Virus record (IMG/VR): IMGVR_UViG_2671181188_000017
DNA length: 53,578 bases
Reading direction: 5' to 3' (one strand)
Source of the DNA: a virus
Lineage: Duplodnaviria; Heunggongvirae; Uroviricota; Caudoviricetes
The position numbers and the translations under genes are program-made. The notes beneath the pieces were generated by a model, which was given only the letters and a program-made list of their open reading frames with translations, was not told where the DNA came from and ran no database searches. Of the stretch, positions 11,560 to 12,565 are shown one piece after another (position 1 is the stretch's first letter; each line of letters begins with the position of its first letter).

Positions 11560-12176
11560 TATCTCACCGTCCAAATTACTTCACCATCATTAACCAAATG
11601 ATGGCATATTCCTTTTTTATCATTTGCTTCACATATTTTTGATAGTACTGAATGTGCAATTGGTGTCAGAACAGCCTGCTTCAAGACTGCATTACACCTA
11701 ATAAATGCATAATTATGGTCTTCATAAAAGACGGGTTCAATTGAAGATGAAATGTAACATTTCAATGCTTTGAATACATCATCTTTAAATACTTCGCGGA
11801 CAAAAACCTCAAGCGAAGATGCAAAATAAAAATCATTTCTACTATTATTAAAGTGTCGTCTGTATGGATCATCAAGCTCTAAGAAAGAACTATAAGTTTT
11901 ATTTCCATGCTCTGAATAGGCTTGAAGCAGTGCATTAACATATACAGACTCTTTTTTTGAATTGTATGTTGGAATTTCATTTGGAGGGATTCTCACGACA
12001 TACAGCTCGTTAAAGTACTTAAAATAAAGGTGTGTATTTGCAATATCATTTAAAATCAATGATAAGGGTAGAGAGTAAAAAATACTAAAATCAAAATCCT
12101 CAATATATTTTTTTATTTCATCATCTAATGGAATATCAATCTTTTTAGTTATTTTTTTGAAATTGCTGAATCCCAT
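11559..12176 (-). CDS. Hotspot ORF B: hypothetical protein (possibly fused to ORF A by frameshift)
   Basis: 205 aa, AT-rich; 28-nt overlap with ORF A containing an A7 run; no obvious RBS of its own. Confidence 0.5.
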   Translation of the reverse strand: MGFSNFKKITKKIDIPLDDEIKKYIEDFDFSIFYSLPLSLILNDIANTHLYFKYFNELYVVRIPPNEIPTYNSKKESVYVNALLQAYSEHGNKTYSSFLELDDPYRRHFNNSRNDFYFASSLEVFVREVFKDDVFKALKCYISSSIEPVFYEDHNYAFIRCNAVLKQAVLTPIAHSVLSKICEANDKKGICHHLVNDGEVIWTVR

Positions 12177-12565
12177 GAATCAAGGACTGCTTTTTTAAGC
12201 TCGTTTTTATTTTTCAATAAATTAGAAAATGTAGTAGATAAATCATAGGGTGCCACAAAAAAGTACTTCTGAGGGATGGGATAATCACCATTCAGAGTAA
12301 AATAGATAAGTTTTCCAAACTCAACTACAACATCAGAGAACCCTAAACTTTTTTTGTACAGTTTGCATTGATAATTATCCCAAGAATAACCTTCTACGTT
12401 AGGATCCGATTTATATCCAACAACGTCTCTACCTTTATCTCCAGCTCCTCCCAAACGTTCGCTCCACGGGTAATCATCTGATTTACAGACAATAAGCCAA
12501 TCATGGACAAATACCTCCCATTGTTCATCATCCCATGTCAATATTTCCGAAAGTGGTTGAGACAC
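12149..12565 (-). CDS. Hotspot ORF A: small protein with Mrr-cat/PD-(D/E)xK-like nuclease motif, translationally coupled to integrase
   Basis: GTG start at 12563-12565 preceded by AAGGAG (inside the last int codons) with 7-nt spacing, 3 nt after the int stop; motif GGAGDKGRDVVGY...YQCKLY resembles the Mrr catalytic core. Confidence 0.55.
   Translation of the reverse strand: MSQPLSEILTWDDEQWEVFVHDWLIVCKSDDYPWSERLGGAGDKGRDVVGYKSDPNVEGYSWDNYQCKLYKKSLGFSDVVVEFGKLIYFTLNGDYPIPQKYFFVAPYDLSTTFSNLLKNKNELKKAVLDSWDSAISKK

What the first reader, a model, noticed from the sequence alone, without database searches (positions are those of the whole stretch)
12140..12180. A7 slippery tract at the ORF A / ORF B overlap: possible -1 frameshift fusion or phase-variable switch
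ORF A ends ..tca aaa aaa taa and ORF B reads the same nucleotides as ttc aaa aaa ata in the -1 frame, so an A_AAA_AAA-type heptamer sits immediately before the ORF A stop. A -1 slip would fuse the Mrr-like domain to ORF B. Homopolymer runs are also classic sites of indel errors and phase variation. ORF B lacks an obvious RBS, which favours expression by fusion. Coordinates near this tract are approximate (manual counting disagreed with the ORF track by 1 nt).
Basis: partly seen in the sequence, partly recalled or inferred. Interest (0 to 1): 0.45.

Follow-up and report, generated by a model that had tools for sequence, protein, structure and literature searches.

The report
Frameshift-broken Lamassu defence gene
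The A7 tract marks where a one-base deletion split a single anti-phage nuclease gene (Lamassu lmuA) in two, inside an operon of E. coli O157:H7 that carries two further inactivating mutations, so it is an ordinary pseudogene and not a programmed frameshift or a phase switch.

Summary
On the minus strand ORF A (12565..12149) ends TCA AAA AAA TAA. The A7 run is 12158..12152. ORF B (12176..11559) reads the same bases in the -1 frame.

The window is E. coli O157:H7, in the P4-like satellite prophage Sp2 (ECs_0290/ECs_0291). ORF A plus ORF B are the two halves of one Lamassu (ABC-3C) effector gene, lmuA. It encodes an N-terminal Mrr/PD-(D/E)xK-type nuclease domain followed by a CTD6 docking/oligomerisation domain.

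- The conceptual -1 fusion (335 aa) matches one PADLOC LmuA profile end-to-end, with the break between profile positions 140 and 141.
- More than 100 protein homologues and 82/82 related genomic loci encode it as one continuous ORF.
- The junction reads S-K-K-I-T, the family consensus, so the ancestor was most simply A8 (TCA AAA AAA ATA ACT). Losing one A creates the TAA directly.
- The partner ATPase gene lmuB is also broken, by a shared frameshift plus an O157-specific TTA>TAA nonsense. O55:H7 instead has a different extra deletion.
- A7 is identical in 309/309 E. coli records and no A8 allele exists.
- No downstream RNA structure is present. Published basal slippage for A_AAA_AAA is about 0.4%.

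Verdict: a fixed frameshift pseudogene in a decaying defence operon. Interest is low.

The parts
12152..12158 (-). A7 homopolymer. This is the lesion site, an inferred A8>A7 one-base deletion in lmuA. It is in the A_AAA_AAA register of the upstream frame.
   Evidence: Sequence. Junction residues S-K-K|I-T match the family consensus. Identical in 309/309 E. coli records. No A8 allele.
12149..12151 (-). Premature TAA stop created by the frameshift (ancestral ATA A.. becomes TAA).
   Evidence: Sequence. Homologues read K-I-T through this position.
12149..12565 (-). ORF A (ECs_0290): 5' fragment of lmuA, residues 1-138, the PD-(D/E)xK / Mrr-like nuclease domain. GTG start with an AGGAG SD.
   Evidence: PADLOC LmuA PDLC03852 profile positions 10-140, E 9e-41. 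Invariant G42 D43 G45 D47 Q66 C67 K68. Pfam Mrr_cat hits in some homologues. SD.
11559..12176 (-). ORF B as called (ECs_0291). Only 12152..11559 is homologous lmuA coding sequence (residues 139-335, middle region plus CTD6). The first 8 codons, including the ATG, are out-of-frame readings of the conserved Ser-Trp codons (TC ATG G).
   Evidence: Pfam CTD6 PF20282, 7.7e-30. PADLOC LmuA profile positions 141-333. No SD. W131 invariant.
11101..11559 (-). lmuC (ABC-3C middle component MC2, ECs_0292). It appears intact. Its ATG overlaps the lmuA stop (TAATG), as in Xenorhabdus.
   Evidence: Pfam MC2 6e-30. PADLOC LmuC 2.5e-36. 59% identical over the full length to Xenorhabdus MC2.
9289..11108 (-). 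lmuB (SMC/Rad50-like ABC ATPase), a pseudogene (ECs_0293) split into three ORFs.
   Evidence: Annotated as a pseudogene in Sakai. tblastn with the intact 604-aa Xenorhabdus LmuB spans all three pieces. PADLOC LmuB PDLC03863 at 3-199, 231-412 and 428-608 of 610.
10476..10478 (-). In-frame TAA nonsense codon in lmuB, specific to O157:H7. O55:H7 and Xenorhabdus have TTA (Leu).
   Evidence: (window 10477 is T in O157 versus A in O55 on the + strand), and 23/52.
9898..9917 (-). Interval containing a 1-nt frameshift in lmuB (near codon 405), shared by O157:H7 and O55:H7.
   Evidence: Frame change between ...EDKNIKQ and IHSSLESLYE... relative to Xenorhabdus LmuB.
12569..13801 (-). P4-type tyrosine integrase (intS, ECs_0289) immediately upstream. 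It marks the defence hotspot of satellite prophage Sp2.
   Evidence: Pfam Phage_integrase, Arm-DNA-bind_3 and Phage_int_M. Sakai annotation 'prophage Sp2, P4-like phage' with psu, sid and delta on the other side.

Best explanation
ORF A and ORF B are the two halves of a single gene, lmuA. It encodes the nuclease effector of a type II Lamassu (ABC-3C) anti-phage system (lmuA-lmuC-lmuB), carried in the cargo hotspot between int and psu/delta of the P4-like satellite prophage Sp2 of E. coli O157:H7.

In an ancestor of the O55:H7/O157:H7 lineage, one A was lost from an A8 run (TCA AAA AAA ATA ACT > TCA AAA AAA TAA CT), presumably by replication slippage. This shifted the frame and created an immediate TAA. 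The result is a 138-aa nuclease-domain fragment, and a downstream remnant that gene callers start at a fortuitous out-of-frame ATG with no ribosome-binding site.

In Lamassu the C-terminal domain of LmuA docks the effector onto LmuB2-LmuC and drives its activating tetramerisation. Separating it from the nuclease domain should therefore inactivate the effector. The partner gene lmuB is independently broken, and the two sublineages have since accumulated different extra lesions, which is the signature of neutral decay.

The A_AAA_AAA-plus-stop configuration is a by-product of the deletion, not a recoding signal. At most it allows a small incidental fraction of ribosomes or transcripts (order 0.4-1%, inferred from published reporter data) to restore full-length LmuA.

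Shown: homology, continuity in all homologues, the additional lesions, invariance of A7, and absence of stimulators.

Inferred: the ancestral A8 state, loss of function, and the level of incidental slippage.
For: 1. The conceptual -1 fusion (335 aa) hits 157 proteins. Essentially all are single ORFs of 324-381 aa covering 91-100% of it. The best is Xenorhabdus bovienii, 67% identical, 335 aa, with no gaps.
2. PADLOC LmuA profile PDLC03852 matches the fusion at positions 10-333 of 336 (E 8e-89). ORF A covers 10-140 and ORF B covers 141-333, which are adjacent profile positions.
3. 82/82 related genomic loci have one continuous ORF across the junction. The K-I-T residues are conserved. Most loci have no homopolymer, and one has an in-frame A9.
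4. In Xenorhabdus the operon is intact: 335-aa LmuA, 152-aa LmuC and 604-aa LmuB, with the same TAATG overlap.
5. lmuB in the window has an in-frame TAA (TTA in Xenorhabdus and O55:H7) and a frameshift near codon 405. Sakai annotates it as a pseudogene. Two independent O55:H7 genomes lack the TAA but have another 1-nt deletion at 9941.
6. A7 is exact in 309/309 E. coli records. An A8-edited query finds only 321/322 matches.
7. The RNA downstream of the tract is less structured than shuffles (MFE -5.9 kcal/mol, z +1.65). There is no SD for ORF B.
8. Two other A7 runs in the same gene are in the slippery register and have no frame change.
9. The AlphaFold model of the intact homologue (pLDDT 93) places residue 138/139 in the loop after helix 120-135. 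The top PDB fold matches are solved LmuA chains.
10. The LmuA C-terminal domain is the sequestered oligomerisation domain (bioRxiv 10.1101/2025.03.14.643221; 10.1101/2025.06.23.660979).
Against: - No homologue closer than 67% protein identity exists in the databases searched, so the ancestral A8 state is inferred from frame and residue conservation, not observed.
- The break falls in an inter-domain loop and leaves both domains intact, which is also what a functional split would look like.
- The A_AAA_AAA heptamer followed directly by a stop is a real slippery context, so some full-length protein is probably made. C-AAA-AAA gave 25-60% frameshifting in an over-expression vector (PMC1851650).
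- No expression data were examined.
- A recent survey reports that defence pseudogenes are rare in P4-like hotspots (PMC13586616), so this is an uncommon state for such a locus.
Confidence: 0.9

Rival explanations
1. Programmed -1 ribosomal frameshifting (or transcriptional slippage) at A_AAA_AAA produces a regulated ratio of a short nuclease-domain protein and a full-length LmuA fusion.
For: - The heptamer is in the correct X_XXY_YYZ register and is directly followed by a 0-frame stop.
- The -1 product is exactly the conserved full-length protein.
- ORF B has no SD of its own.
- A_AAA_AAA is frameshift-prone in E. coli: 0.4% alone and 25% with a strong pseudoknot (PMC4066793 Table S3). C-AAA-AAA gave 25-60% in pDEST17 (PMC1851650).
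- A weak GGGA lies 12 nt upstream.
Against: - None of 82 related loci has the two-frame arrangement, and more than 100 protein homologues are single ORFs.
- There is no downstream stimulatory structure (z +1.65).
- Measured efficiency without a stimulator is about 0.4%.
- Two further in-register A7 runs in the same gene are not recoding sites.
- lmuB, which Lamassu function requires, carries two inactivating lesions that differ between sublineages.
Confidence: 0.03
2. Phase-variable (contingency) switch: the A-run expands and contracts between A7 (OFF) and A8 (ON) to toggle the defence effector.
For: Homopolymers mutate by slipped-strand mispairing, and A8 would restore the frame (sequence). 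AAAAAAA is under-represented in E. coli genes, partly for this reason.
Against: - A7 is exact in 309/309 records from 308 genomes spanning O55:H7 and O157:H7.
- No A8 allele was found.
- No full-length E. coli protein appears in a 5.8-billion-cluster protein database. Only the 197-aa fragment cluster does.
- 7 nt is short for a contingency tract (general knowledge).
- lmuB is irreversibly broken, so an ON state would not restore the system.
Confidence: 0.02
3. A functional split: ORF A (free nuclease domain) and ORF B (free CTD) are now two separately expressed proteins with a retained or new role.
For: - The break lies in an inter-domain loop, so both domains are intact.
- Both ORFs have stayed open through the O55:H7 to O157:H7 divergence.
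- RefSeq annotates both as CDS.
Against: - ORF B has no SD. Its ATG is an out-of-frame reading of conserved Ser-Trp codons, 28 nt inside ORF A.
- No homologue shows such a split.
- One strain already carries a further frameshift inside ORF A (position 12521).
- Divergence within the lineage is too small (99.9% or more) for the open ORFs to indicate selection.
- The rest of the operon is decaying.
Confidence: 0.04
4. Sequencing or assembly error in a homopolymer. The real genome would have A8 and an intact gene.
For: Homopolymer length errors are common on some platforms.
Against: The identical A7 is present in 309 records from many laboratories and platforms, including Sakai and EDL933.
Confidence: 0.01

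Closest known systems
Type II Lamassu / ABC-3C anti-phage systems (LmuA-LmuC-LmuB; e.g. Salmonella enterica LmuACB, Vibrio cholerae DdmABC)
   Same: - Three-gene architecture: an effector with an N-terminal nuclease plus an ABC-3C C-terminal domain, a middle component, and an SMC/Rad50-like ABC ATPase.
- PADLOC LmuA/LmuC/LmuB and Pfam CTD6/MC2 hits.
- The fold of the intact homologue is closest to solved LmuA chains.
   Different: - The effector N-domain is Mrr/PD-(D/E)xK-type with CTD6 and MC2, not the Cap4-nuclease with CTD7/CTD12 and MC3 of the studied systems.
- The copy here is non-functional by sequence: lmuA is frameshifted and lmuB is broken twice.
Xenorhabdus bovienii prophage-borne lmuA-lmuC-lmuB (locus L003)
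   Same: Closest intact relative: LmuA 67%, LmuC 59% and LmuB about 55% identical. It has the same gene order and the same TAATG overlap.
   Different: All three genes are intact. The junction codons are AGT AAA ATA TCA with no long A-run. It is carried next to a siphovirus-type terminase/portal module and not in a P4-like satellite.
Programmed -1 frameshift sites of E. coli (dnaX A_AAA_AAG; IS3-family orfAB, IS600 A_AAA_AAA)
   Same: A slippery lysine heptamer in X_XXY_YYZ register at an ORF overlap, with the downstream ORF in the -1 frame and lacking its own RBS.
   Different: - No downstream hairpin or pseudoknot, and no clear upstream SD stimulator.
- The arrangement is not conserved in any homologue.
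- The ancestral state is a single uninterrupted ORF.
Homopolymer frameshift pseudogenes with incidental 'rescue' by polymerase/ribosome slippage (reviewed in PMC5009743; nonprogrammed frameshift suppression, PMC10861913)
   Same: A one-base indel in a poly(A) tract inactivates a gene, and the same tract permits low-level restoration of the frame.
   Different: At 7 nt the tract is short for efficient transcriptional slippage. Rescue would be pointless here because lmuB is also inactivated.
Defence cargo hotspots of P4-like satellites (int to psu region)
   Same: The locus sits between the P4-type integrase and delta/psu/sid of Sp2, the position described as the main P4 defence hotspot (PMC13586616).
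   Different: That survey reports recognisable defence pseudogenes as rare in such hotspots. This locus is one.

Membership tests
Lamassu / ABC-3C effector LmuA | Two-part protein: an N-terminal effector domain followed by an ABC-3C C-terminal domain, matching an LmuA profile over its full length. | tested here: met
   The reconstructed 335-aa protein matches PADLOC PDLC03852 at positions 10-333 of 336, E 8e-89. Pfam CTD6 2.1e-29. The fold of the 67%-identical homologue is closest to solved LmuA.
Lamassu / ABC-3C effector LmuA | Encoded as one intact open reading frame. | tested here: not met
   Split after codon 138 by a frameshift at the A7 run. It is therefore an lmuA pseudogene and not a functional member.
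Type II Lamassu system | Operon with LmuC (middle component) and an SMC-like LmuB ATPase. | tested here: met
   LmuC 2.5e-36. Three LmuB fragments collinear with profile PDLC03863. Same order as the intact Xenorhabdus operon.
Type II Lamassu system | Intact LmuB with Walker A/B and coiled-coil in one polypeptide. | tested here: not met
   In-frame TAA at 10476-10478 and a frameshift at about 9898-9917. Annotated as a pseudogene in Sakai.
Programmed -1 ribosomal frameshift site | Slippery X_XXY_YYZ heptamer in the 0-frame register. | tested here: met
   A_AAA_AAA at 12158-12152 in ORF A's frame.
Programmed -1 ribosomal frameshift site | Stimulatory element: a downstream hairpin or pseudoknot 5-9 nt away, and/or an upstream SD-like sequence. 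| tested here: not met
   The downstream 92 nt has MFE -5.9 kcal/mol, z +1.65, and 195/200 shuffles fold at least as well. Only a 4-nt GGGA lies 12 nt upstream.
Programmed -1 ribosomal frameshift site | Conservation of the heptamer and the two-frame arrangement among homologues. | tested here: not met
   0 of 82 loci. All are continuous ORFs.
Programmed -1 ribosomal frameshift site | Frameshift product made at a biologically meaningful level. | not testable with these tools
   Only published reporter values are available: 0.405% for AAAAAAA without a stimulator (PMC4066793 Table S3).
Phase-variable homopolymer (contingency locus) | Tract-length polymorphism between or within strains, including an in-frame ON allele. 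| tested here: not met
   A7 is exact in 309/309 records. There is no A8 allele and no full-length E. coli protein in the protein database.
Mrr-like (PF04471) restriction-endonuclease domain | Significant match to the Mrr_cat profile and a conserved D...(E/Q)xK catalytic core. | tested here: inconclusive
   - The O157 ORF A has no Pfam hit at E<=0.01.
- 2 of 22 aligned homologues hit Mrr_cat (best 6.3e-06), and 3 database homologues carry PF04471.
- D43, D47, Q66 and K68 are invariant.
- Fold matches to Cap4, MspJI and FokI nuclease domains are weak (E 0.008-0.2).

The most novel reading that the evidence does not exclude
The A7-plus-stop context supports appreciable -1 slippage in vivo: tandem slippage on A_AAA_AAA plus P-site slippage while UAA waits in the A site. 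O157:H7 would then make a low, steady amount of full-length LmuA nuclease that LmuB/LmuC cannot sequester, with some residual toxic or defensive activity. Alternatively, the two fragments act as a split effector.
Probability: 0.04. Interest if true: 0.35.

Novelty: new member of a known kind. Interest (0 to 1): 0.1.

Why it matters
Mostly as an annotation correction. ECs_0290 and ECs_0291 (EDL933_RS01510/RS01515) should be merged and flagged as one frameshifted lmuA pseudogene. The locus should be recorded as a decayed Lamassu (ABC-3C) system in the P4-like satellite Sp2 of the O55:H7/O157:H7 lineage.

It also gives a dated example of stepwise defence-system decay, with shared lesions followed by lineage-specific ones, at a type of hotspot where defence pseudogenes are reported to be rare. 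It is a cautionary case too: a textbook slippery heptamer at an ORF overlap can be just the scar of a homopolymer deletion.

Tried and rejected
- NCBIfam gave no hits for any Lamassu ORF.
- A profile search of PDB sequences with the LmuA alignment found nothing. Only the fold search linked it to solved LmuA.
I used the gap-free 67%-identical Xenorhabdus protein instead.
- 'Distant' blastn in E. coli genomes found no diverged (<99%) intact copy that could show the ancestral run length.
- A literature search for the locus tags gave nothing usable. Z0326 is mentioned in a mavR RNA-seq list, but I did not verify which gene that tag is.
- I considered the 1-nt-shorter match in strain NE 1092-2 as possible tract-length variation. 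The deletion is at 12521 inside ORF A, not in the A7 run.
- I considered that the O55:H7 deletion at 9941 might be a 454-type assembly error. A second, independently sequenced O55:H7 genome encodes the same 394-aa fragment.
- Sequencing error, phase variation and programmed frameshifting were each tested and rejected, as detailed under the rival explanations.

Full report
**1. The observation**

The genes lie on the minus strand.
- ORF A runs 12565..12149. It is 138 aa, has a GTG start preceded by AGGAG, and ends TCA AAA AAA TAA.
- The A-run is exactly seven bases, 12158..12152.
- ORF B runs 12176..11559 (205 aa). Its ATG lies 28 nt upstream of ORF A's stop.
- ORF B reads ATG GGA TTC AGC AAT TTC AAA AAA ATA ACT, which is the -1 frame relative to ORF A.

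**2. Where the window comes from**

A 3.4-kb query around the site matches 310 records in 309 of 5,426 complete E. coli genomes, all at 99% identity or more and all from O157:H7 or its O55:H7 relatives. In Sakai the region is annotated as 'prophage Sp2, P4-like phage'. ORF A is ECs_0290 and ORF B is ECs_0291 (both 'hypothetical protein'). The next gene is ECs_0292, and the following 1.8 kb is annotated as a pseudogene, ECs_0293 'AAA family ATPase'. The P4-type integrase is immediately upstream, and delta/psu/sid lie on the other side. This is the position of the main cargo hotspot of P4-like satellites (PMC13586616).

**3. What the genes are**

- Pfam places CTD6 of ABC-three-component systems in ORF B (7.7e-30) and MC2 in the next ORF (6e-30). 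The three following ORFs look like pieces of an SMC-type ATPase.
- PADLOC models identify them as Lamassu LmuA, LmuC and LmuB. ABC-3C and type II Lamassu are two names for the same systems.
- ORF A matches LmuA profile PDLC03852 at positions 10-140 and ORF B at positions 141-333. The conceptual -1 fusion matches positions 10-333 of 336 with E 8e-89. The break is therefore between adjacent positions of a single-protein profile.

**4. Homologues**

- The 335-aa fusion retrieves 157 proteins. Essentially all are single ORFs of 324-381 aa covering 91-100% of the query.
- The best is a 335-aa Xenorhabdus bovienii protein, 67% identical and gap-free.
- The only E. coli entry is a 197-aa fragment cluster with 692 member sequences. 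No full-length E. coli protein exists in a database of 5.8 billion clusters.
- Across the junction the fusion reads ...WDSAISKK|ITKK.... The family consensus is WDxSISKKIT, with W131 invariant and I139 nearly so.
- A scan of one genome per species found 542 relatives. I examined the 80 best plus two Xenorhabdus loci base by base, and 82 of 82 have one continuous ORF through the junction. Most have no homopolymer there. One Chryseobacterium has an in-frame A9, GAA AAA AAA ATT.
- In Xenorhabdus the operon is intact: LmuA 335 aa, LmuC 152 aa, LmuB 604 aa.

**5. The lesion**

Restoring the frame requires one extra base between codons K138 and I139. The only place that keeps S-K-K-I-T is the A-run itself, so the simplest ancestor is TCA AAA AAA ATA ACT (A8). 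Deleting one A gives TCA AAA AAA TAA, which explains why a stop codon directly abuts the heptamer. ORF B's ATG is the out-of-frame reading of the conserved Ser-Trp codons (TC ATG G), so it is an artefact of ORF calling and not a start site. The A8 state is inferred, because no relative closer than 67% identity was found.

**6. The rest of the operon is also broken**

tblastn with the intact Xenorhabdus LmuB spans all three window ORFs.
- There is an in-frame TAA at 10476-10478 where Xenorhabdus has TTA (Leu).
- There is a 1-nt frameshift within 9898-9917.
- Two independently sequenced O55:H7 genomes have TTA, not TAA, at that codon. They carry a different extra lesion, a 1-nt deletion at window 9941 (A6>A5), which gives a 394-aa fragment, WP_014640504.1.
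- One O157:H7 strain has yet another frameshift at 12521 inside ORF A, flagged 'frameshifted' by PGAP.

The lmuA frameshift and one lmuB frameshift therefore predate the O55/O157 split, and each sublineage has added its own damage since. That is what neutral decay looks like.

**7. Tests of the recoding and phase-variation ideas**

- *Conservation.* None; see section 4.
- *Stimulators.* The 92 nt downstream of the heptamer fold to only -5.9 kcal/mol, which is weaker than shuffled controls (z +1.65). Upstream there is only GGGA at a 12-nt spacing.
- *Motif specificity.* The operon is 30.9% GC with six A>=7 runs on the coding strand. Three of them are in the X_XXY_YYZ register, and the other two lie inside the lmuA 3' part with no frame change.
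- *Expected efficiency.* Sharma et al. measured 0.405% -1 frameshifting for AAAAAAA without a stimulator, 0.82% with the IS911 stimulators and 24.8% with the IS3 pseudoknot. They note that the motif is strongly avoided in E. coli genes (PMC4066793). As a caveat, C-AAA-AAA gave 25-60% in an over-expression vector (PMC1851650), so context can matter.
- *Length variation.* With an 81-nt query centred on the tract, any single difference would drop identity below 99%. All 309 records are at 99% or more with at least 80% coverage. An A8-edited 322-nt query finds only 321/322 matches. The tract has thus been fixed at A7 from O55:H7 to present-day O157:H7. This also excludes sequencing error.

**8. 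Consequence for the protein**

An AlphaFold model of the intact Xenorhabdus LmuA has pLDDT 93.2 and the same numbering as the O157 reconstruction. It shows an N-terminal alpha/beta domain ending with helix 120-135, a loop at 136-148, a small middle region and a helical C-terminal domain. The break at 138/139 lies in that loop. Foldseek against the PDB ranks solved LmuA chains first (9nxx, 9ny1, 9hqx; probability 1.0 but low TM-score, consistent with different domain orientations). Cap4, MspJI and FokI-type nuclease domains follow.

In characterised Lamassu systems the LmuA C-terminal domain is held by LmuB2-LmuC. After release it drives the tetramerisation that forms the active nuclease. A 138-aa nuclease domain without it should be neither docked nor activatable. 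This step is inferred by analogy, because the studied systems have a Cap4-type nuclease and other CTD/MC classes.

**9. Comparison with what is known, and novelty**

The locus is a Lamassu/ABC-3C operon by every sequence criterion except gene integrity, so I file it as a Lamassu pseudogene cluster and not a functional member. It resembles a dnaX- or IS3-type frameshift site only in the heptamer and ORF geometry. It fails the stimulator and conservation criteria.

The kind of thing, a homopolymer frameshift pseudogene, is entirely familiar. What seems unrecorded is that ECs_0290 and ECs_0291 are one frameshifted lmuA, since the annotations I saw list them as two CDSs. A mild point of interest is that a 2026 survey found recognisable defence pseudogenes to be rare in P4-like hotspots, and this locus is one.

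**10. Verdict**

| Item | Result |
|---|---|
| Observation | Confirmed |
| Best explanation | Fixed A8>A7 frameshift pseudogene of lmuA in a decaying Lamassu operon, confidence about 0.9 |
| Residual novel reading | Biologically meaningful slippage or a functional split, about 4% |
| Interest | 0.1 |

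Noticed in passing
window 18830-51195: About 32 kb between the Sp2/Sp1 junction region and thrW has no counterpart in Sakai's 10.6-kb Sp1 remnant. Window 1-17162 and 51195-53578 are collinear with Sakai at about 99.7%. The strain in the window therefore carries a much longer lambda-like prophage at thrW than Sakai does.
   Followed up: partly
window 52135-52210 (-): tRNA-Thr(CGT), thrW, is the only tRNA in the window and the integration site of the tandem Sp1/Sp2 elements. 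A tRNA-like 3' fragment (att repeat) probably lies near 13820-13980, where O55:H7 and O157:H7 diverge.
   Followed up: no
window 9289-11108 (-): lmuB decay is stepwise and lineage-specific. The TAA nonsense at 10476-10478 occurs only in O157:H7, and the 1-nt deletion at 9941 only in O55:H7. These lesions could serve as lineage markers.
   Followed up: yes
window 12521 (homologous position in NZ_CP038328.1): O157:H7 strain NE 1092-2 has an additional 1-nt deletion inside ORF A, annotated 'frameshifted' by PGAP. This is either further decay or an assembly error in that genome.
   Followed up: partly
window 14306-14671 (+) and 14713-15465 (-): An IS3-family transposase remnant (rve-like C-terminal fragment, ISEc48 partial in Sakai) lies next to an AraC-type regulator (ECs_0287) at the Sp1 end adjoining Sp2.
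   Followed up: no
L086/L088 6323-7684 (O55:H7, beyond the Sp2 integrase): In O55:H7 the DNA flanking Sp2 differs from O157:H7 and carries a 'type III secretion system protein' pseudogene with an internal stop.
   Followed up: no
L019 (Chryseobacterium hispalense) junction codons: An intact lmuA homologue has an in-frame A9 run (GAA AAA AAA ATT) at exactly the homologous position. The K-K-I motif therefore predisposes AT-rich versions of this gene to the same kind of homopolymer lesion.
   Followed up: partly
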